From: an uncultured Methanosarcinales archaeon
GTDB lineage: Archaea; Nanobdellota; Nanobdellia; Woesearchaeales; WJKR01
Length of the DNA: 64,000 nucleotides
Assembly (NCBI GenBank): GCA_964556395.1
Contig: CAZKVR010000005.1
Coordinates: 1,470 to 65,469 of the forward strand
Reading direction: 5' to 3'
The notes beneath the pieces are model-generated. The model saw only the letters and a program-made list of their open reading frames with translations, was not told where the DNA came from and did not search any database. The translations under genes and the position numbers were made by a program. How positions within the stretch are numbered: the first letter of the stretch is position 1; every line of letters begins with the position of its first letter. This document shows, piece after piece, positions 4,385 through 13,564 of the stretch.

Positions 4385-5065
4385 TTGGTTATGGATCCGG
4401 CTGTCCGTGCGAAGGAGGAGTTGTTCCCGGACAAGGCTGACGGGAGGGCTTTCTCGACGCGGTACTCGGGGCGTTTCTCCCGTTTCAACGCGAACGTGCG
4501 TTATACGCGGAAGGAGATGGTGTTCTCCCTGTCCAGGTCCTTCCTCGAGGTGTCCGAGGAGATCCGGCAGGGTATCATCGAGCACCTGTTGTGCCGGGTG
4601 TACGGCGAGGAGCGGCCGAGCCTGAACCAGGACCTGTACCGGTCGTTCATGAGGCACCTGAACAAGGTGGCGGTGATCGACGAGAAGGACCCTTTCTTGT
4701 TGTCGCGGTTCAAGGTCATCAACGAGGGTTATTTCAACGGGATGATGACCGAGCCCAACCTGAAGTGGGGGCAGGAGTCGTTCCGGAAGCTGGGCCATTA
4801 CGAGTATTCTTCGGACACGATCGTCATCAGCAAGGTTTTTGCGAAGGCTGTGGATGACGAGCGGGTGCGGGGGTTGCTTGATTTTGTGTTGTACCATGAG
4901 ATGCTGCACAAGAAGCACCAGTACGACCACACGAAGAAGCGTGCGCGGCACCACACCAAGGCGTTCCGGGAGGATGAGCGGCGGTGGCACGACCCGGACG
5001 TGGAGCGGAAGCTGGGCTCTTTTCTAGGTAAGAAGAGGCTGCGGAAGGCGTTATGGGACTGGTGA
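4385..5065 (+). CDS. putative zinc-dependent hydrolase (HExxH, YgjP/DUF45- or SprT-like)
   Basis: LYHEMLHKKHQYDH HExxHxxH-type motif near C-terminus; no other recognisable domain. Confidence 0.35.
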   Translation: MVMDPAVRAKEELFPDKADGRAFSTRYSGRFSRFNANVRYTRKEMVFSLSRSFLEVSEEIRQGIIEHLLCRVYGEERPSLNQDLYRSFMRHLNKVAVIDEKDPFLLSRFKVINEGYFNGMMTEPNLKWGQESFRKLGHYEYSSDTIVISKVFAKAVDDERVRGLLDFVLYHEMLHKKHQYDHTKKRARHHTKAFREDERRWHDPDVERKLGSFLGKKRLRKALWDW

Positions 5066-5137
5066 CCAACAACAACATTTATAAACCGCTTCCTGTTCCT
5101 CGGCTTATCCTAAAACTGTTTAGAGGTTGTTTTCAAC

Positions 5138-5542
5138 ATGGCAGACATCAAGCACAAGCCCGCGGGCAGCATGCAGAAGGGCAATTACGTGGTCATCGAC
5201 GGCAATGCGTGCGTCGTCCAGGACGTGAAGATCAGCAGGCCTGGCAAGCACGGTCACGCCAAGGTCAATCTCATGGCCGTCGGCATGATTGACGAGAAGA
5301 AGCGCAACATCATCGTCCCGGGGCATGACAACCTCGAGGTGCCTGTCATTGAGAAGAAGAACGCTCAGGTCCTTTCTGTCACGGATGCCACGTGCAACGT
5401 GATGGATATGGAGACGTACGAGACGTTCGACCTGAAGATCCCGTCAGAGCTCCAGGGCCAGGTGGCTGAGGGGCAGGTCGTGGTGTATTGGGTCATCCTC
5501 GACGACAAGGTGTTGAAGCAGATCAAGAGCGAGGGTGAATGA
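5138..5542 (+). CDS. eif5a: translation initiation factor 5A (aIF-5A)
   Basis: 134 aa; hypusine-loop region SRPGKHGHAKVNL fully conserved. Confidence 0.9.
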   Translation: MADIKHKPAGSMQKGNYVVIDGNACVVQDVKISRPGKHGHAKVNLMAVGMIDEKKRNIIVPGHDNLEVPVIEKKNAQVLSVTDATCNVMDMETYETFDLKIPSELQGQVAEGQVVVYWVILDDKVLKQIKSEGE

Positions 5543-5545
5543 TTC

Positions 5546-5707
5546 ATGGCGAAGTTCCCAGAAGCTGAGGCTCGGTTGTTCAAGGACATGTTCGTGTGCC
5601 GTTCCTGCAAGTCTAAGATTCGTGCGGGCAACCTGCGCGTGCTGGCCGGTAAGGTCAAGTGCAGGAAGTGCGGCGGCAAGGCCTTGAAGCCGGTGCGCAA
5701 GAAATAA
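5546..5707 (+). CDS. rpl40e: 50S ribosomal protein L40e
   Basis: 53 aa not in ORF track; MAKFPEAEARLF...CRSC...CRKCG zinc-ribbon typical of L40e; followed by T-run terminator 5712-5720. Confidence 0.8.
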   Translation: MAKFPEAEARLFKDMFVCRSCKSKIRAGNLRVLAGKVKCRKCGGKALKPVRKK

Positions 5708-6202
5708 GACGATTTTTTTCTTCTTGAATCCTTTCTTTGTTGGATGGCGTGACGTCCGCAGGCCTTTCTTCCTCCAGGGCTCTTTGCGTGACAGGGGAGC
5801 TGCCGCGCGTCCTGGTGCGGAAACGCCCTTTTGTAGAGGTTTGAGGCCTGCGGACGCGTTTACTCACGTCCGCCATTGGCGAGCGGGTGCTCGCCGATGA
5901 CCAGATAGGTAGTGCGCGATGGATATTCTTATTTAAATGTGTATTTTTGTATGGGATAATAGAATATTCTTTATTATCCTGAAAAAGAAAAACGTTGCTA
6001 AAGCGCTTCTCGACGGGAAAAACCCTTCTCAGGAATGATACCGTCCGAAAAATACACAAGTGCCAGAACCAGACAAGATAAAAAAAGAGAAAAACAGGAT
6101 AAAAATAAGATAAAAATAAACTATTTTAAGAAGAAATGGATAAAAAAATAGCGTTTTGATTTTTATAACGCCCTTGAGCGCCTCACCCATAGGGGTGAGA
6201 CC

Positions 6203-7621
6203 ATGAATTCTGTACATACAGAGAGAAAGAAGACGAAAATAGATTGGAGACACTACCAGCGCCTCAGCGCGAGAGCGACCGAGAAGTACATCGAAGACCT
6301 CGTGAAGAACGAGGAAGGGAAGCTGTGGAGCACGTACGCGGCGTCGTACGACAGGCTCATCGCCCACTTTCCCATATACCAGGAATTGCGCGGATTGGTG
6401 CTGGAGAGCATGGACACTATCAACACTGGCCGGGAAGACTCGTTCCTCATCGACATGGGGGCCGGCGCAGGTCACATGCTCGGACCGTTGAGCGCCTACG
6501 GCCACGTGCAGGGAGTGGAGAAGAACCCTGAGATGATAGCGAAGGCAAAGGAGAGGACGAAACGCAACAGCCGCGTCGGGATAATCCAAGGCGACATGCG
6601 GACATACCGGCCGCCGCACATGGCGGACGGCGTGGTGTTCGCGAACAGCCTCTACGTGCTCGACCAGGACGTCGCCGACAGGGTGCTCGAGAATGCCGTG
6701 GACTACCTGCGGCAGGGCGGCGTCATCTCAGTCGCAGGCCCGCGGCCCGGCGTCGACCTGGACGACATCTGGGAGAAGGAGAAGCCGGCGCTCCAGAGGA
6801 AAGGCATCGACCGGCGGTTCCCGAAGGAGTTCGTCGAGTTCGAGATCTGCAACCGCGTCATCGCGCGGATGGGGATGCGGAACAAGATGACAAACGGGGA
6901 GCTGGAGGACAAGCTCAAGCACTACGGGGCAGACATCATCGAGTCCCAAAGGGTCTACCACGGCCACGAGCACTTCGTGGCGGGCCAGAAGCCGGTCCGG
7001 AAGGAGGACTTGCCGGGTCACGAGGCTGTGAAGCGTAACGTCGTGCACGACCTTGACGCAGAGGTCACCGCGCCCGTGGCCAGGGAGGAGTACATCCTGG
7101 ACGTGGCCCGCGCCCCGAAGGATTTTGAGGAGTCGTTCAGCCTCAGGTACAGGAACTTCTGGGAGGACGACATCCTACGGTTCCGGAACCGTGAAGGATT
7201 GCTCATGGACAGGTACGATAAGGACGCGGTGCAGGTCGTCGCCAAGAAGAAGGACGACGGTAAAGTGATAGGCACCGTGAGGCTCCTGCCACGGAAGCCC
7301 GGCGCCGCGCTCAATTTCGGCGACCGGTATGAAGGCGCGATCAAGGAGGACGAGCCGACGGCCGAGACCTCGCGGCTGGCGGTGGATCGGTCGTCCAACG
7401 GCAAGGACATCGGCGCTGACATGCTGCGGTACGCGAACGCCATCGCGCACCGGATGGGCATTCCGACCGTCGTGAGCTTTGGCCGGGCGGACCTTGAAGG
7501 ATACCTGTCGCGATGCGGCTACCGGCGAAGGTCGGGAGAGCAGCGCTTCACCAGAGGGTTGTTCACGACGACCCATGCGGGCGTGGTGTACACGTGCGAC
7601 ACCTCGCGCCATGGGTTATGA
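6203..7621 (+). CDS. fusion protein: class I SAM-dependent methyltransferase (N-term) + GNAT-fold N-acyltransferase/N-acyl amino acid synthase-like domain (C-term)
   Basis: Motif I LIDMGAGAGHM and motif post-I; C-terminal TVRLLP...AETSRLAVDR resembles FeeM/LuxI-like GNAT-fold acyl synthases. Confidence 0.45.
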   Translation: MNSVHTERKKTKIDWRHYQRLSARATEKYIEDLVKNEEGKLWSTYAASYDRLIAHFPIYQELRGLVLESMDTINTGREDSFLIDMGAGAGHMLGPLSAYGHVQGVEKNPEMIAKAKERTKRNSRVGIIQGDMRTYRPPHMADGVVFANSLYVLDQDVADRVLENAVDYLRQGGVISVAGPRPGVDLDDIWEKEKPALQRKGIDRRFPKEFVEFEICNRVIARMGMRNKMTNGELEDKLKHYGADIIESQRVYHGHEHFVAGQKPVRKEDLPGHEAVKRNVVHDLDAEVTAPVAREEYILDVARAPKDFEESFSLRYRNFWEDDILRFRNREGLLMDRYDKDAVQVVAKKKDDGKVIGTVRLLPRKPGAALNFGDRYEGAIKEDEPTAETSRLAVDRSSNGKDIGADMLRYANAIAHRMGIPTVVSFGRADLEGYLSRCGYRRRSGEQRFTRGLFTTTHAGVVYTCDTSRHGL

Positions 7622-8821
7622 GAGGAGGTAGTACTTGCGCCCCATGCGCTGGTCTATGAGCTGCCTGAGGCTGGGCGGCAGTTTTTCTTTTTCTTTCTCG
7701 ACCAGTCCTTTCCCGCCGTCGAGGCGTAGCGTGTAGGTGACGTCCTCACCTTTGATGGCGGACTCGCAGGCGGTGACCGCGACGTCGTATGAGTGGGTGG
7801 CGGCGCCTACGATCATCCCTTCCACGAACCAGTCCCTGAAGCCCGAGGAGGTCCCGACCATGTTGCGGTATTGGACGAGCGGGTAGGAGTGGCCGCATCG
7901 CACCACGATACGCCGAGGCGTGCTCTCCTCCACCTCTATCTTGCCGATGCCGCAGAAGTAGAGTTGGTTGAGCACGGCCTTGAACGACTCGTCGCCTTTG
8001 GCGACGCCGAAGTTGTTGACTTGGAAGAGGACGGCGTGCTTGGCTTGGACATGCGTGAGATAGGAGAGTTCGGGTGTGATGTCGAACCCTTTCGCGCGGA
8101 GGGTGCGGGGGATGATCTCGTACACGTTGAGGGGAAAGAAGTGTGCGAGGATGTTGAACACCGAGAGGTGGCCTTCTTCCAGGCGTATCTGCTTGGTCGC
8201 CACGACTCGTTGGATGAGGGTGTTGGGATACTCGGCCACCGTCGAGGAGTAGAGGTTGTCCCATGTGAGGTCCTCGTCGAGCTCTTCTTGCGAGAAGAAG
8301 CCTTGGTAGGGGTCTTGGGTGACGAGCCTGAACCGGCACCGGTCGCCTTGGTGGACTGCGCATCCGACCTCTTCGAAGTGGCAGTCGGTGCCAGAGAGAA
8401 GTGAGAACGCGCCGGCGTAGAGTCCTGCGAGGAAGTGGTTGACCGGCTCTTGCTGCGTGCCGAAGGATCGTTTCCACTGCTTGGCGAGGGGGCTGTTGTT
8501 GGTGAGGTGGCATGAGGGTGTAGTGAAGCTCATTCTTGTAATGGTGGTCTTGCCGAAGCCGAGGGCTTCGAAGTCCTTGAAGAGGTTCTCCAGGACGCGT
8601 TTGCGGTCGAGCTTGAGCCCGTGCTTAAGCTTGGCTGTGATGCTCTTGCCGAGCGCCTTGCCGATCCTGAAGAGGAGTTCGCGGGATCGTTCTCCGAACT
8701 TCCGGTCGAGGAGGTGTTGGAAGACGACGTAGGCGTAGAGCACGCTGACGAATTTTGGTATGGGCCCAATGACTGAGTGTTGCCGGTTGCCGAAGAACCC
8801 GTTGAAGAATCGCTTCGCCAT
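7616..8821 (-). CDS. V4R (4-vinyl reductase) domain protein, two V4R-like modules
   Basis: HFEEVGCAVHQGDRCRFRL matches V4R ExxCxxxGxxxCxF signature; degenerate second copy TACESAIKGEDVTYTL. Confidence 0.45.
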   Translation of the reverse strand: MAKRFFNGFFGNRQHSVIGPIPKFVSVLYAYVVFQHLLDRKFGERSRELLFRIGKALGKSITAKLKHGLKLDRKRVLENLFKDFEALGFGKTTITRMSFTTPSCHLTNNSPLAKQWKRSFGTQQEPVNHFLAGLYAGAFSLLSGTDCHFEEVGCAVHQGDRCRFRLVTQDPYQGFFSQEELDEDLTWDNLYSSTVAEYPNTLIQRVVATKQIRLEEGHLSVFNILAHFFPLNVYEIIPRTLRAKGFDITPELSYLTHVQAKHAVLFQVNNFGVAKGDESFKAVLNQLYFCGIGKIEVEESTPRRIVVRCGHSYPLVQYRNMVGTSSGFRDWFVEGMIVGAATHSYDVAVTACESAIKGEDVTYTLRLDGGKGLVEKEKEKLPPSLRQLIDQRMGRKYYLLS

Positions 8822-8822
8822 G

Positions 8823-9557
8823 CTAGTCCTCGTAGGAGTGGATGACTATGCCTTCCGGTCCTATCTCGACCGGGTGTATGTCCTCGTCGTTCTTGGTCTC
8901 GCGCATCTTCCTGACCGTCAGGTGGCGCGAGTAGTCGGCGCCCATCGTCTCGTACTTGAGGTGTAGGATGCCGTCGGCGACGTATTCTGAGACGCCGTCG
9001 CTGGAGAGCTTGCCGTCCGTACTCTGCGACACGAGGAGCGTCGTGGTGTCCGGCAACGATCGGAGGTCGTTGATGAACCCGTAGATGAAGCGTTGGATGT
9101 AGAGGTGCGTTATGGATGTCAATGACACTTGGGTTGTGGGGACGTTGATGGCGAGCGCCGAGAGCGAGTCTATGACGAGCCTGCTGACGTTCTCGTTCTT
9201 GGCGTACTTGATGATTTCCTGGGCGGTCTCTTCTGTCAGGTCTTTGACGGGGAAGGAGAGGAGTTTCATGAGGCCTTTCTTCTCCATGGCGTCGATGTCC
9301 CATCCGAAGGCTTTGGCTTGGGACTTGAGGTTGCTGGCGCTCTCCTCGAAGGTGATGTAGAGTCCTTTCTCGCCGTGCTCCTTGGCACCCTTGTAGAGGT
9401 ATTGGAGTGAGAAGATGGTTTTGCCCGTGCCTGGCGTGCCGCTGAGGAGGACGCACTTGCCCGCGGGCAGGCCTCCGCCTACGAGCTTGTCGAAGCCTTC
9501 TATGCCTGTCTTGACGAGCCGCTTCTGCGGTGCGGCCTTGGGTTTCTTCGCAGTCAT
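8823..9557 (-). CDS. KaiC-like/RadA-like RecA-superfamily ATPase
   Basis: GIEGFDKLVGGGLPAGKCVLLSGTPGTGKT Walker A, KaiC/RecA core; true start MTAKKPK (ATG 9557), long ORF-track N-extension rejected. Confidence 0.75.
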   Translation of the reverse strand: MTAKKPKAAPQKRLVKTGIEGFDKLVGGGLPAGKCVLLSGTPGTGKTIFSLQYLYKGAKEHGEKGLYITFEESASNLKSQAKAFGWDIDAMEKKGLMKLLSFPVKDLTEETAQEIIKYAKNENVSRLVIDSLSALAINVPTTQVSLTSITHLYIQRFIYGFINDLRSLPDTTTLLVSQSTDGKLSSDGVSEYVADGILHLKYETMGADYSRHLTVRKMRETKNDEDIHPVEIGPEGIVIHSYED

Positions 9558-9859
9558 TTCAATCCCAGCTTGTTGATGACGTAGAGGAATATGATGTTGG
9601 TGCTCGTCTCGATCTTCTGGCATCGGGCCTTGCGCTTGAGCTTGAGGCCTTTGCGGAGGGCTTTGGGGACGAGGAAGTAGGTGGTGGCCTCGTTCCGGCC
9701 CCTTTTCGTCATGGTGGTCTCGACTTCGGCGACGTCTTCTGAGAAGAGGTGGACGTTGTTGAGGTTGCCCTTGAGTTGCAACGCCTCCTCGTAGTCGACG
9801 AGGACCTCGAAGACGACCTTGCCGTCCTCTTTCGTCCTGGAGCTCAGGATGGTTCCCAT
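9554..9859 (-). CDS. small protein with AbrB/MazE-like swapped-hairpin C-terminal region
   Basis: 101 aa from MGTILSS (ATG 9859); ATTYFLVPKALRKGLKL resembles AbrB/SpoVT VxIPxELRxxLxI motif; ATGA overlap with KaiC-like gene. Confidence 0.3.
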   Translation of the reverse strand: MGTILSSRTKEDGKVVFEVLVDYEEALQLKGNLNNVHLFSEDVAEVETTMTKRGRNEATTYFLVPKALRKGLKLKRKARCQKIETSTNIIFLYVINKLGLK

Positions 9860-10040
9860 GGTGGTCTTGTGTGGTGAACAACTCATATTTAAGGATATGG
9901 ACGGAGGATGACACCAAAACAAATAACAGGATAACAAAGAGAAAAGCAGTAACACCCATTCCTTCATGACAAGACTACAGCGTCAAACCACGAAGAAGAG
10001 CACAACCTTTAAAAAGAAGCCTTGCAGGAACCCTCTCACC

Positions 10041-11309
10041 ATGTCCTTCCTGGCACAGTACGGCAGCGTCATCGCGTTCTACCTCATCATCATCTTCCTC
10101 ATCGTGCGCTACAGGAAGCGGTTCGACTTCCAAGGGAAAATCATCGCCATGCTCCGGACGAAGATAGGCCTCAAGCTCATGCACAAGTGGGGGACCAACG
10201 GCCGGCGGTTCGTCAAAGGGCTCGCCACGGCAGGCATCTACGCAGGCTTCCTCGGCATGGCGGCCACCATCTACATGATCATCGACGGGTTGTGGAAACT
10301 CCTCTTCGTACCCTCGGCACCGCCGACGTTCGCCCCGGTCCTGCCAGGCGTCAACATCCCGGGCGTGGAGATCTTCGTCCCGTTCTGGTACGGCATCATC
10401 GCGTTGTTCCTCACCATCGTCGTGCACGAGTTCAGCCACGGCGTCGTCGCGGCGGCGCACAGGATGAAGGTGAAGAACTCAGGCTTCGTCATGTTCGGAC
10501 CGCTCCCCGGCGCGTTCGTCGAGCCCGACGAGGAGCAGCTCCAGAAGGCGAAGCCGAAAGCCCAGTTGTCGGTCTACGCCGCCGGCCCGTTCAGCAACAT
10601 CCTATTGACGATCATCCTCATACTCCTCTTCGGATTCCTGCCATTGTTCGTGTCAGGCATGGGCGGCACGCCCTCGGAAGGCCTCCAGACGTTCACCAGG
10701 TACACGAGCGTCGTCAACTTCGGAGCGCTACGCGACGACATGTACCAAGCCACCGGCCTACGCATACTCGACGTGAAAGAGGATTCGGGCGCCGACGAGG
10801 CAGGACTGGCCAACGACACGGTGATCAGGAGCATCGACGGCGTCGACGTGCGTGACAACCTGACGGCCTTCGGCGACGAGATAGTATCCTTCCAAGACCT
10901 CGCGCCTGGCGACACGGTAACATTCAGCAACGAGAACGAGACGTGGACTATCACCACGCAAGAGCACCCTGACAACGAGAGCCGCGGCTGGATCGGCATC
11001 GTGTTCGACACCGGCTTCGTCACGGAGAAGAACCCGAAGGCGGTCGAGAAGTACGGCGAGGCAGGCTTCAAAGGCCTGGAGATACTCTACCAGCAGGTCC
11101 TCTGGCTCATCATCCTGAGCAGCGGCATCGGACTGGCCAACCTCCTCCCCCTGGGACCGGTGGACGGCGGACGCATGCTCCTCGTAGCCCTGGAACGATA
11201 CCTGCCGAAGAAGAAGGCGCAGATGGTATGGGGGAAGGTCAGCATGGTCGTCTTCCTCCTCGTCATCATACTGCTCCTAGGTCCCATCCTGCAGAACCTG
11301 CTCGGATAG
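10041..11309 (+). CDS. site-2 protease (M50 family) with PDZ domain
   Basis: HEFSHG HExxH in TM helix, LDG-like NLLPLGPVDGG motif, central PDZ (ILDVKEDSGADEAGL); TATA CCTTTAAAAAG ~25 nt upstream of ATG 10041. Confidence 0.8.
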   Translation: MSFLAQYGSVIAFYLIIIFLIVRYRKRFDFQGKIIAMLRTKIGLKLMHKWGTNGRRFVKGLATAGIYAGFLGMAATIYMIIDGLWKLLFVPSAPPTFAPVLPGVNIPGVEIFVPFWYGIIALFLTIVVHEFSHGVVAAAHRMKVKNSGFVMFGPLPGAFVEPDEEQLQKAKPKAQLSVYAAGPFSNILLTIILILLFGFLPLFVSGMGGTPSEGLQTFTRYTSVVNFGALRDDMYQATGLRILDVKEDSGADEAGLANDTVIRSIDGVDVRDNLTAFGDEIVSFQDLAPGDTVTFSNENETWTITTQEHPDNESRGWIGIVFDTGFVTEKNPKAVEKYGEAGFKGLEILYQQVLWLIILSSGIGLANLLPLGPVDGGRMLLVALERYLPKKKAQMVWGKVSMVVFLLVIILLLGPILQNLLG

Positions 11310-12883: not shown

Positions 12884-13564
12884 ATGGATTTCTCCTGCCA
12901 GGACAAGACCGAGGCTTTGTGTGCGAGCGCGCGCGAGGCCGTGAGGAAGACCCGGTTCGTCGTCGTCGGCGTCGGCGCGTTGGGCTGCGCGGCCGCCCAG
13001 GCGTTGGTGCGGAGCGGCGCTGAGGAGTTGGTGTTGGTCGATGATGATTCTGTGGAGGTGGATAACCTTCCGCGGCAGGTGTTGTTCGTGAAAGAGGATG
13101 TGGGGATGCGTAAGGCTTCGGTGGCTGCGGAGCGTTTGCGCGCGCTGGATCCTGGCCTCCGCGTCAGTGTCGAGAATGAGAGGCTCGATGCGGATAACGT
13201 TTCTTCCTTGCTCGAGGGGGCTGGCGTCGTGGTGGAGTGCACTGACAACCTCGCGGCGCGGCGGGTCATCGACGGGTATTGTGCAGCTTCGTCCACGCCT
13301 TGGGTGCACGCCGCCGTCGCGGGCGCCAAGGGTGAGGCGATGGCTGTGCTGCCCGGCTCCAAAGGGTATGGTGACATGGTTGAGGGTAAGGTGGTTTCTG
13401 AGGATTGCGCTAACGAGGGAGTCCTTTCTGTCAACGCTATCATGACGGGTACGTTCGAGGCGATGTTGGCGTTGCGCGTCGCTTCCGGCCAGGACGAGGG
13501 GTTGCTCGGCGTGTTGTTCCGCTTGGACGCTTGGTCCGGCGCTGTGGACCGTTTCAGGCTCTAG
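12884..13564 (+). CDS. ThiF/MoeB/HesA-family E1-like adenylyltransferase
   Basis: VVVGVGALGCAAAQALVRSGAEELVLVDDDSVEVDNLPRQVLF nucleotide-binding/E1 motif. Confidence 0.75.
   Translation: MDFSCQDKTEALCASAREAVRKTRFVVVGVGALGCAAAQALVRSGAEELVLVDDDSVEVDNLPRQVLFVKEDVGMRKASVAAERLRALDPGLRVSVENERLDADNVSSLLEGAGVVVECTDNLAARRVIDGYCAASSTPWVHAAVAGAKGEAMAVLPGSKGYGDMVEGKVVSEDCANEGVLSVNAIMTGTFEAMLALRVASGQDEGLLGVLFRLDAWSGAVDRFRL

What the first reader, a model, noticed from the sequence alone, without database searches (positions are those of the whole stretch)
7616..9859. Operon of AbrB-like small protein, KaiC-like ATPase and double V4R-domain protein
Three translationally coupled minus-strand genes overlap by 4 nt (9554-9557) and by 2 nt. 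V4R domains are small-molecule-binding modules and KaiC-like ATPases act as signalling switches in archaea. Coupling to a putative swapped-hairpin DNA-binder suggests a ligand-sensing regulatory cassette. I am not aware of it being characterised.
Basis: partly seen in the sequence, partly recalled or inferred. Interest (0 to 1): 0.55.

Follow-up and report, generated by a model that had tools for sequence, protein, structure and literature searches.

The report
DPANN KaiC–V4R–small-protein regulatory cassette
Three tightly packed genes (an unannotated small basic protein, a KaiC-like ATPase and a tandem V4R sensor protein) form a cassette conserved across many uncultured DPANN archaea, with a shared DNA motif and a neighbouring biosynthetic operon. 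It is most likely an uncharacterised ligand-sensing gene switch.

Summary
The three minus-strand genes are real: a small 101-aa protein (9554-9859), a KaiC-like ATPase (8823-9557) and a 401-aa V4R protein (7616-8821). The ATGA overlap at 9554-9557 is correct. The claimed 2-nt overlap is actually a 1-nt spacer.

KaiC-like identity is firm. "Double V4R" holds: the halves are homologous (hhalign E 1.5e-40) and the model matches MopR/PoxR sensors, but the C-terminal copy lacks the Cys pair. "AbrB-like" is only weakly supported, with no significant sequence or fold hit.

The small gene is followed by KaiC in 29 of 32 species-representative DPANN loci. A V4R-family gene follows in all 25 evaluable loci.

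New here:
- A GGATAA/TTATCC motif paired at 19-21 nt is enriched upstream of the small gene. In the window it lies upstream of the convergent methyltransferase-FeeM gene.
- That gene recurs in 13 of 14 close-type loci, often with a B12-radical-SAM or ThiF gene.

Best model, inferred: a split analogue of XylR/DmpR regulators, running V4R sensor to ATPase to small DNA binder. I found no description in the held literature. It is a new variant of the proposed KaiC signalling hubs.

The parts
9554..9859 (-). Small protein gene (101 aa, pI 9.6). It has an acidic N-half and a very basic C-half with a predicted beta-beta-alpha-beta-beta unit. It is the first gene of the cassette and the candidate DNA-binding output.
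   Evidence: ORF; a conserved DPANN-only family with no Pfam entry and an invariant Met-Gly start. AF2 model with pLDDT 77.5. AbrB-type proteins are top-ranked but not significant; pI of the halves is 4.5 and 10.9.
8823..9557 (-). Single-domain KaiC-like (RecA-superfamily) ATPase, 244 aa. Its start overlaps the small gene's stop (ATGA at 9554-9557).
   Evidence: PF06745 E 6.9e-57; closest solved relatives are the KaiC CI/CII domains, PH0186, PH0284 and SSO2452. GTPGTGKT, TFEES and RLVIDS are conserved; junction.
8237..8821 (-). V4R protein, N-terminal module (residues 1-195). It resembles a MopR-like XylR_N+V4R sensor and keeps E151-x2-C154-x7-C162.
   Evidence: PF02830 at 34.4 bits, above the gathering cutoff of 31.; residue-level alignment to MopR QETHCVAQGDEHC; motif survey.
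7616..8236 (-). V4R protein, C-terminal module (residues 196-401). It is a homologous but degenerate second copy that has lost the Cys pair, followed by a conserved C-terminal tail ...IDQRMGRKYYLLS.
   Evidence: no Pfam hit; hhalign N-half against C-half, E 1.5e-40; single-module proteins align to residues 200-360. Cys loss and tail.
9885..9892 (-). TATA-like box TTAAATAT, 25 nt upstream of the small gene's ATG. This implies a leaderless or near-leaderless operon transcript.
   Evidence: the same arrangement is seen in orthologous loci.
9929..9934 (-). One perfect TTATCC half-site (minus-strand sense) about 70 nt upstream of the small gene's ATG. Degenerate copies TCATCC (9906-9911) and ATATCC (9893-9898, abutting the TATA box) follow it.
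5953..5979 (.). Inverted repeat GGGATAA-N14-TTATCC in the AT-rich region upstream of the methyltransferase-FeeM gene. It is the only perfect GGATAA/TTATCC hexamer pair 17-24 nt apart in the 64-kb window; the only other pentamer-core pair (11304/11328) is imperfect.
6097..6143 (+). Two further GGATAA copies (6097-6102 and 6138-6143), 41 nt apart, upstream of the methyltransferase-FeeM gene.
6203..7621 (+). Convergent gene encoding a SAM-methyltransferase fused to a FeeM-like GNAT (N-acyl amino acid synthase / autoinducer-synthase-like). It overlaps the V4R gene's 3' end by 6 nt and is a conserved neighbour of the cassette.
   Evidence: Methyltransf_25 5.6e-13, FeeM 4e-11, Autoind_synth 24.0 bits at its cutoff; recurrence in other loci.

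Best explanation
The three genes form a ligand- or redox-responsive transcriptional switch split over three polypeptides.

Proposed roles:
- The V4R protein is the input. Its N-module has a MopR-like fold with a Glu/Cys/Cys metal-site motif, and it would bind a hydrophobic or aromatic small molecule or sense redox state.
- The V4R protein controls the oligomeric or nucleotide state of the single-domain KaiC-like ATPase, which acts as the transducer.
- The ATPase in turn controls the small basic protein, which is the output.
- The small protein binds paired GGATAA/TTATCC half-sites two helical turns apart, at its own promoter and at the promoter of the convergent methyltransferase-FeeM operon (in relatives, B12-radical-SAM or ThiF plus methyltransferase plus FeeM-like GNAT).

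In logic this is a trans-encoded analogue of the bacterial XylR/DmpR/MopR regulators, which run V4R sensor to ATPase to DNA-binding domain.

Shown: the identities of the ATPase and the V4R modules, conservation of gene order, enrichment and phasing of the motif, and recurrence of the convergent operon.

Inferred: every protein-protein and protein-DNA contact, the direction of signal flow, and the ligand. The ligand is possibly the product of the neighbouring operon.
For: Gene order:
- Small gene then KaiC in 29 of 32 species-representative loci. A V4R-family third gene follows in 14 of 14 evaluable close-type loci and 11 of 11 evaluable distant-type loci.
- The same cassette was recovered starting from distant double-V4R proteins (19-27% identity) in L166, L167 and L168, and as KaiC plus V4R in L044.
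- Junctions are tight (a 4-nt overlap or spacers of a few nt at most junctions; up to ~60 nt in a few loci) across loci.

ATPase: catalytic motifs are intact in both types.

V4R sensor fold:
- Foldseek to MopR/PoxR/DmpR, E 2.6e-6 and probability 1.0.
- Profile hits to MJ1460 and MopR with E-x2-C-x7-C aligned.
- DmpR zinc ligands are Cys151, Glu172, Cys177 and Cys185, and the DmpR domain order is V4R, AAA+, DNA-binding (PMC7264223).

Operator:
- The hexamer occurs at 10.2 per kb in the 200 nt upstream of the small gene, against 1.2 per kb elsewhere.
- At least 2 copies occur in 24 of 28 loci, against 13% of 508 GC-matched control windows.
- Spacing peaks at 19-21 nt in 46 of 76 adjacent pairs.
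- The motif follows the small gene even in L038, which lacks KaiC.
- The same pairs lie upstream of the convergent operon in the window and in L012-15, 19, 20, 21, 24 and 41.

Small protein: the C-half is strongly basic (family median pI 9.9) with a beta-beta-alpha-beta-beta unit and a YFL(V/I)PKxLRKxL motif that aligns to AbrB RVVIPIELRRTL. SpoVT/AbrB/MazE/VapB proteins dominate the compact fold hits.
Against: No significant sequence or fold match ties the small protein to any DNA-binding family. The model is only moderate (pLDDT 77.5, pTM 0.46).

The window's own small-gene promoter has just one perfect half-site.

The motif is not specific at metagenome scale. None of 120 exact inverted-repeat matches were near such genes, although that scan was truncated and dominated by chance hits. 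The motif is weak in L166-L168.

The binder could be encoded elsewhere. No interaction among the three proteins was tested. Convergent orientation of the biosynthetic operon is not co-transcription. The window lacks the radical-SAM gene seen in relatives.
Confidence: 0.45

Rival explanations
1. The cassette is a signalling module, but the small protein is not a DNA binder. It would be an adaptor, cap or substrate of the KaiC-like hexamer, comparable to KaiB or to ArlH partners. The output would be protein-protein control, for example of the enzymes of the neighbouring operon. The GGATAA/TTATCC motif would be bound by a regulator encoded elsewhere.
For: The small protein has no significant match to any DNA-binding family. 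Its acidic N-half suggests a protein-interaction surface. Its tightest and most conserved link is to KaiC, through translational coupling. Archaeal KaiC-like proteins such as ArlH act through protein partners (PMC8978795).
Against: The motif tracks the small gene in 28 of 28 loci, including L038, which has no KaiC. Divergent paralogue pairs flank an inverted repeat, as is typical of autoregulated regulators. The C-half is strongly basic and its fold hits are AbrB-like.
Confidence: 0.25
2. The three genes belong to the biosynthetic or modification pathway of the convergent operon rather than regulating it. For example, the V4R/Bet3-like protein could be an acyl- or intermediate-binding carrier and the KaiC-like ATPase an assembly factor. 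The small protein, with its invariant N-terminal Gly, could be a substrate of the FeeM-like GNAT and methyltransferase.
For: Met-Gly is invariant at the N-terminus of all family members and paralogues. A GNAT-plus-methyltransferase gene is conserved next door. Bet3/TRAPPC3 structures, including a palmitate-bound one, are among the fold matches. A double-V4R protein without KaiC sits beside other GNAT-like genes in L042.
Against: Distant-type loci keep the Met-Gly start but lack the methyltransferase-FeeM operon. The orientation is convergent, not co-transcribed. The phased DNA motif argues for regulation. Nothing links KaiC-like ATPases to such chemistry.
Confidence: 0.08
3. It is a toxin-antitoxin or anti-virus defence module, with an AbrB-type antitoxin plus effector.
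For: There is a weak NCBIfam hit to the PrlF antitoxin (E 0.033). AbrB-fold antitoxins (MazE, VapB) are among the fold hits.
Against: PADLOC gives no relevant hit. There is no toxin-like domain. The cassette holds a stable position among housekeeping genes and has a conserved single-copy distribution across species.
Confidence: 0.03

Closest known systems
Archaeal KaiC-like ATPase 'signal transduction hubs' (Makarova, Galperin and Koonin 2017, mBio 8:e01959-17; cited in PMC5847659; paper itself not held)
   Same: A single-domain KaiC-like ATPase is encoded next to a putative small-molecule-sensing input and a putative DNA-binding output. Some loci (L012) carry further KaiC paralogues, a degenerate KaiC-like (DUF7504) gene and a receiver domain.
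   Different: The specific triad here was not found described in any held paper. That triad is the unannotated DPANN small-protein family, KaiC and one or two V4R modules, together with a phased GGATAA/TTATCC motif and a convergent radical-SAM/ThiF, methyltransferase and FeeM operon. I could not read the 2017 paper to check its neighbourhood tables.
XylR/DmpR/MopR/PoxR aromatic-responsive regulators (NtrC family)
   Same: The sensor has the same fold (XylR_N+V4R), with aligned Glu/Cys/Cys metal-site residues. The logic is the same: sensor, then hexameric or oligomeric ATPase, then DNA binding at paired upstream sites (PMC7264223).
   Different: The ATPase here is RecA/KaiC-type, not AAA+ with a GAFTGA loop. 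There is no sigma-54 in archaea and no Fis-type helix-turn-helix. The three functions sit on three separate proteins, and the sensor is duplicated with a degenerate second copy.
MsvR (methanogen-specific V4R regulator)
   Same: An archaeal regulator that uses a V4R domain with conserved Cys. The N-module gives a weak NCBIfam hit to the MsvR V4R region (E 0.0073).
   Different: MsvR fuses the V4R domain directly to a DNA-binding domain and has no ATPase partner. The score here is far below the family cutoff (16 against 220 bits).
SpoVT/AbrB/MazE/VapB swapped-hairpin DNA binders (PF04014)
   Same: The C-half is predicted as beta-beta-alpha-beta-beta. It carries a hydrophobic-Pro-x-x-hydrophobic-Arg motif and is basic. 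Proteins of this fold are the top-ranked compact fold hits.
   Different: There is no significant profile or fold score. The protein has an extra acidic 47-residue N-half of unknown fold. No internal duplication was found.
LuxI/LuxR-type or FeeM-type N-acyl signal synthase and sensor pairs
   Same: A FeeM/autoinducer-synthase-like GNAT is encoded next to a ligand-sensor and regulator set, and both promoters carry the same motif.
   Different: There is no LuxR-type receptor. The synthase is fused to a methyltransferase, with radical-SAM or ThiF partners in relatives. The product is unknown and no evidence shows that it is a signal.

Membership tests
KaiC-like RecA-superfamily ATPase (PF06745) | Profile match above the curated cutoff | tested here: met
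   192.9 bits against a cutoff of 26.6, E 6.9e-57, covering 228 of 231 profile positions.
KaiC-like RecA-superfamily ATPase (PF06745) | Walker A, catalytic Glu after strand 2, and Walker B | tested here: met
   GTPGTGKT, TFEES and RLVIDS are present and aligned to KaiC. They are conserved in 26 orthologues.
Bona fide circadian KaiC | Two tandem KaiC domains (CI+CII) of about 500 aa | tested here: not met
   The protein is a single 244-aa domain. Both KaiC halves align to the same query region. NCBIfam circ_KaiC scores 109.6 bits against a cutoff of 546.
Bona fide circadian KaiC | KaiA/KaiB partner genes | not tested
   The adjacent genes are the small protein and the V4R protein, neither of which gives a KaiA or KaiB Pfam hit. 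The rest of the genome is not available.
V4R domain (PF02830) / MopR-type sensor | Profile match above the cutoff | tested here: met
   The N-module scores 34.4 bits against 31. The family profile hits MJ1460 at 3.6e-15 and MopR at 3.2e-12 in PDB sequences.
V4R domain (PF02830) / MopR-type sensor | Second (C-terminal) V4R copy | tested here: met
   Pfam does not detect it. The hhalign comparison of N-half and C-half gives probability 100%, E 1.5e-40 over 156 columns. Single-module relatives align to residues 200-360. The AF2 secondary structure repeats.
V4R domain (PF02830) / MopR-type sensor | Fold match to solved V4R sensor domains | tested here: met
   Foldseek matches MopR 5kbg at E 2.6e-6, PoxR 5fru, DmpR 6iy8 and MJ1460 2osd, all at probability 1.0, using a model with pLDDT 89.9.
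V4R domain (PF02830) / MopR-type sensor | Glu/Cys/Cys(/Cys) zinc-site residues | tested here: inconclusive
   In the N-module, E151-x2-C154-x7-C162 aligns with MopR ETHCVAQGDEHC. The position of the fourth ligand (Cys in MopR/DmpR) is Asn or Asp in this family. The C-module lacks both Cys. Metal binding was not tested.
SpoVT/AbrB/MazE swapped-hairpin (PF04014) | Profile match | tested here: not met
   None of 49 members hits PF04014 even at E 10. The PF04014 hit in P0017 lies in a chimeric C-terminal extension. PrlF gives only E 0.033. hhalign against a typed AbrB set gives probability 8-14% over 16 columns.
SpoVT/AbrB/MazE swapped-hairpin (PF04014) | Fold match (beta-beta-alpha-beta-beta half-barrel) | tested here: inconclusive
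SpoVT/AbrB/MazE swapped-hairpin (PF04014) | Dimerisation into an interleaved barrel and DNA binding | not testable with these tools
   No multimer prediction or binding assay was available. The only indirect support is the phased motif upstream of the gene.
NtrC-family XylR/DmpR regulators | AAA+ sigma-54-interaction ATPase and Fis-type helix-turn-helix on the same chain as the V4R sensor | tested here: not met
   The V4R protein has no further domain. The ATPase is KaiC/RecA-type. This is an analogy of logic only.
Known anti-phage defence or toxin-antitoxin systems | Match to PADLOC models | tested here: not met
   There were no hits for the small and V4R proteins and only marginal P-loop hits for KaiC at E about 0.007.

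The most novel reading that the evidence does not exclude
The cassette and the convergent operon may together form an autoinducer-like circuit in episymbiotic DPANN archaea. The FeeM-like GNAT, with its methyltransferase and (in relatives) a TsrM-like B12-radical-SAM or ThiF enzyme, would make a modified N-acyl aromatic amino acid. The MopR-like V4R protein would sense that product. The KaiC-like ATPase would relay the state to the small DNA-binding protein, which would act at shared GGATAA/TTATCC operators on both operons. The result would be a self- or host-sensing switch built entirely from parts not previously combined.
Probability: 0.15. Interest if true: 0.8.

Novelty: new variant of a known kind. 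Interest (0 to 1): 0.6.

Why it matters
Archaea carry many KaiC-like ATPases whose roles are mostly unknown, and DPANN archaea have very few recognisable regulators. This cassette is compact and conserved, and it comes with a predicted sensor, a predicted operator sequence and a candidate ligand-producing operon. Each step can therefore be tested in vitro with recombinant proteins, without culturing the organisms. If confirmed, it would give a first worked example of a KaiC-centred transcriptional switch. It would also define a new family of small DNA-binding proteins, and might identify a small-molecule signal in symbiotic archaea.

Tried and rejected
- Reverse test of the motif: I scanned metagenome contigs for GGGATAA-N13-15-TTATCCC. 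The test is uninformative because chance matches dominate at that scale. It shows that the 14 specified bases alone are not diagnostic.
- Internal duplication of the small protein (two AbrB-like halves): rejected, hhalign probability 0.5%.
- Pfam on all 49 small-protein members, and a PDB sequence profile search: nothing relevant.
- The PF04014 flag on homologue P0017: it lies in a read-through or chimeric extension and is not evidence for the family.
- Word-index protein search with the 401-aa protein: it found only one homologue. The exhaustive search was needed to find the rest.
- BLASTP between the window's V4R protein and the distant-type third genes: nothing. Profile-profile comparison was needed.
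- Rfam and tRNA scans of 5000-11000: nothing.
- PADLOC: nothing relevant.
- The 2017 KaiC-hub paper is not held, so I could not check whether it lists this neighbourhood.
I repeated it with 11 sequences.

Full report
**What is in the sequence**

Three minus-strand ORFs occupy 7616-9859. They are a 101-aa ORF (9554-9859), a 244-aa ORF (8823-9557) and a 401-aa ORF (7616-8821).

The second junction is not a 2-nt overlap. The TAG stop is at 8823-8825 and the ATG at 8819-8821, which leaves one spacer base.

The 101-aa reading of the first gene is preferred over the longer 137-aa ORF for two reasons. Every homologue begins at the same Met-Gly and is about 100 aa long. A TTAAATAT box (9885-9892) lies 25 nt upstream of that ATG, as it does in orthologous loci, which suggests a leaderless operon transcript.

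The best hits carry the label Candidatus Woesearchaeota. All related loci come from DPANN-type MAGs.

**The ATPase**

The middle gene is a single-domain KaiC-like RecA-superfamily ATPase. It scores PF06745 E 6.9e-57. Its closest solved relatives are the KaiC CI/CII domains and the archaeal single-domain proteins PH0186, PH0284 and SSO2452.

Walker A (GTPGTGKT), the catalytic Glu pair region (TFEES) and Walker B (RLVIDS) are intact. They are conserved in 26 orthologues of two subtypes. The protein is not a true two-domain circadian KaiC.

**The V4R protein**

Pfam sees a single V4R domain (residues 120-167, just above the cutoff) and nothing in the C-terminal half. A word-indexed search found only one homologue. 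An exhaustive HMMER search then found 143 relatives. Many are about 400 aa with two matched stretches, and several single-module proteins align to residues 200-360.

Several results establish the tandem duplication and the fold:
- A profile-profile comparison of the N- and C-halves of the family alignment gives probability 100%, E 1.5e-40 over 156 columns. The protein is therefore a tandem duplication of a module of about 160-190 residues.
- The AF2 model is confident (pLDDT 89.9, pTM 0.91). It matches the phenol-sensor domains of MopR, PoxR and DmpR (E from 2.6e-6), MJ1460, YslB and Bet3/TRAPPC3.
- The family profile also finds MJ1460 (3.6e-15) and MopR (3.2e-12) by sequence. E151-x2-C154-x7-C162 aligns to MopR ETHCVAQGDEHC.
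- DmpR uses the equivalent Glu and two Cys, plus a fourth Cys, to hold zinc (PMC7264223). In this family the fourth position is Asp or Asn.

The C-terminal module of the window's clade has lost both Cys. It ends in a conserved tail, (I/V)I(E/D)(E/Q)(K/R)M(K/G)(H/R)(K/Q)YYL. "Double V4R" is therefore right, with a degenerate second copy.

**The small protein**

It belongs to a family found only in DPANN, with 65 clusters by single-sequence search and 130 with a superfamily profile. No member has a name or a Pfam domain.

None of 49 members hits PF04014 or any other family meaningfully. A PDB profile search is empty. The one PF04014 flag, on P0017, lies in a chimeric extension.

The AF2 model is moderate (pLDDT 77.5). 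It shows a hairpin plus helix in residues 3-29 and a beta-beta-alpha-beta-beta unit in residues 50-95.

Foldseek finds nothing significant. However, the compact top hits are almost all SpoVT/AbrB-type proteins: C68, C56, MazE, VapB and AbrB-N, with target-normalised TM 0.55-0.59. The viral library gives a similar picture.

The N-half is acidic (pI 4.5) and the C-half very basic (pI 10.9, family median 9.9). "AbrB-like" is thus plausible but unproven.

**Conservation of the cassette**

A scan of one genome per species returned 32 loci. HMM searches on their ORFs gave the following:
- The small gene is followed directly by a KaiC-like gene in 29 loci. Of the other three, one ends at the contig edge and two lack KaiC.
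- Fifteen loci have a KaiC close to the window's (type A). All 14 evaluable ones have a V4R-family third gene, with a single module of 208-252 aa in nine and a double module of 394-408 aa in five.
- Fourteen loci have a more distant KaiC (type B). Most of these also carry a divergently transcribed paralogue of the small gene.
- All 11 evaluable type B loci have a third gene of 355-426 aa. As a group these genes are homologous to the double-V4R family (hhalign probability 98.4%, E 5.5e-15).

Sampling from the V4R side recovers the same arrangement. Distant double-V4R proteins P0070, P0079 and P0090 each sit behind a small-family gene and a KaiC gene. P0072 sits behind a KaiC gene without a small gene. 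P0085 has neither.

**A conserved DNA motif**

Upstream of the small gene, GGATAA/TTATCC recurs. The numbers are:
- It occurs at 10.2 per kb in the 200 nt upstream, against 1.2 per kb in the rest of the loci.
- At least two copies occur in 24 of 28 loci, against 13% of 508 GC-matched control windows.
- Adjacent copies are spaced 19-21 nt apart in 46 of 76 cases, with a minor peak at 39-43 nt.

Type B loci mostly show GGGATAA-N13-14-TTATCCC between the two divergent small genes. The double-V4R clade shows two direct copies. The proximal site often abuts the BRE/TATA region.

The motif accompanies the small gene in L038, which lacks KaiC. The same pairs lie upstream of the convergent operon in many type A loci.

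In the 64-kb window the hexamer occurs only 24 times. Four copies lie in the AT-rich stretch upstream of the methyltransferase-FeeM gene: the inverted repeat at 5953-5979, plus copies at 6097 and 6138. One perfect and two degenerate copies lie upstream of the small gene.

A reverse scan of metagenomes for the exact inverted repeat was uninformative, with 0 of 120 hits near such genes in a truncated scan.

**The convergent operon**

The gene at 6203-7621 (+) fuses a SAM methyltransferase to a FeeM-like GNAT, of the N-acyl amino acid synthase / autoinducer-synthase type. It overlaps the V4R gene tail-to-tail by 6 nt.

A homologue, either fused or split, lies in the same convergent position in 13 of 14 type A loci. 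It is usually preceded by one of two genes. One is a B12-binding radical-SAM gene, whose best NCBIfam match is tryptophan 2-C-methyltransferase at 303 bits, below the cutoff of 500. The other is a ThiF-family gene. The same arrangement appears in L166 and L167. The window itself has a ThiF-like gene 3 kb away.

Type B loci instead share a convergent gene of about 385 aa with no known family and a UbiA-family gene.

**Interpretation**

The most economical reading is a three-protein switch. The V4R sensor would take as input a hydrophobic or aromatic ligand, possibly the product of the neighbouring operon, or alternatively redox state through the Cys pair as proposed for MsvR. The KaiC-like ATPase would be the transducer. 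The small basic protein would be the output, acting at the paired half-sites.

This mirrors the domain logic of XylR/DmpR/MopR. It uses a RecA-type ATPase and separate polypeptides, so it is not a member of that family. It fits the proposal that KaiC-like ATPases are archaeal signalling hubs (cited in PMC5847659 and PMC6393860).

All contacts and the direction of flow are inferred. The main rival is that the small protein is a KaiC partner rather than a DNA binder. A pathway role and a defence or toxin-antitoxin role are less likely.

**Novelty and score**

No held paper links KaiC with V4R, AbrB or FeeM in this way. I rate it a new variant of a known kind and give it interest 0.6. It is a conserved, compact and testable regulatory system in a lineage with few known regulators. 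It includes an unannotated protein family and a candidate operator, but its mechanism rests on inference.

Noticed in passing
window 5920-6170: An AT-rich island sits in a 58% GC genome, inside the 495-nt gap between the L40e-like gene (5546-5707) and the methyltransferase-FeeM gene. It holds a near-perfect long palindrome (GGATAATAGAATATTCTTTATTATCC) and a TATA-like TTATTTAAATG at 5930-5940. Rfam and tRNA scans found no RNA gene.
   Followed up: partly
window 9554-9859 and all homologues (alignments A2, A5): The N-terminal Met-Gly is conserved in nearly all members and paralogues of the small-protein family (MGxI(L/I)xS(K/R)). This resembles a eukaryotic N-myristoylation context, and a GNAT acyltransferase gene lies next door. 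No test was possible.
   Followed up: no
loci L018, L022, L023, L025-L032, L035, L036: A second paralogue of the small protein is transcribed divergently from the first, with the GGGATAA-N13-14-TTATCCC inverted repeat between them. L028, L039 and L041 carry a third, more distant paralogue a few kb away. L167 has two small genes in tandem.
   Followed up: partly
locus L012 1-3500 (also L014, L015): The double-V4R clade sits in a signalling island. The island holds a second KaiC-like gene, a DUF7504/degenerate KaiC-like gene, another weak KaiC-like gene and a CheY-type receiver. GGATAA/TTATCC pairs occur in several of the intergenic regions.
   Followed up: partly
type B loci, e.g. L025 8280-11485: The distant-type cassettes share a different convergent neighbourhood: a conserved protein of about 385 aa with no known family, an HMGL-like gene and a UbiA-family prenyltransferase.
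   Followed up: partly
window 9966-11309 (+): A site-2-protease-like M50 peptidase with a PDZ domain is transcribed divergently from the small gene, only 106 nt away, so the two genes share one promoter region. This neighbour is not conserved in related loci.
   Followed up: no
window 12884-13564 (+): A ThiF/MoeB-family adenylyltransferase gene lies 3 kb from the cassette. ThiF genes directly precede methyltransferase-FeeM in L035, L039 and L041.
   Followed up: partly
loci L015 and L016; L011-L014, L034: L016, labelled Candidatus Nomurabacteria bacterium, is nearly identical to the Woesearchaeota contig L015. Several contigs labelled 'uncultured Methanosarcinales' carry this DPANN cassette. 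These are probably binning or labelling errors in the public records.
   Followed up: no
loci L006/L007/L040 and L038: In a few species the small gene stands without KaiC. In L006 it is followed by a radical-SAM gene and preceded by a divergent 315-aa protein with a genuine MazE/AbrB N-terminal domain (PF04014, 28.1 bits).
   Followed up: no
window, whole 64 kb: GC content is 54-62% throughout, far above the 27-35% of most related DPANN loci. GC skew is positive in nearly every 2-kb bin, so cumulative skew rises steadily across the window.
   Followed up: no
PMC3149612 (Nanoarchaeum equitans proteome): A single-domain KaiC protein (NEQ174, arCOG01171) is among the three most abundant proteins of N. 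equitans, and a 102-aa protein of unknown function (NEQ026) is also abundant. I could not check whether either relates to this cassette.
   Followed up: no
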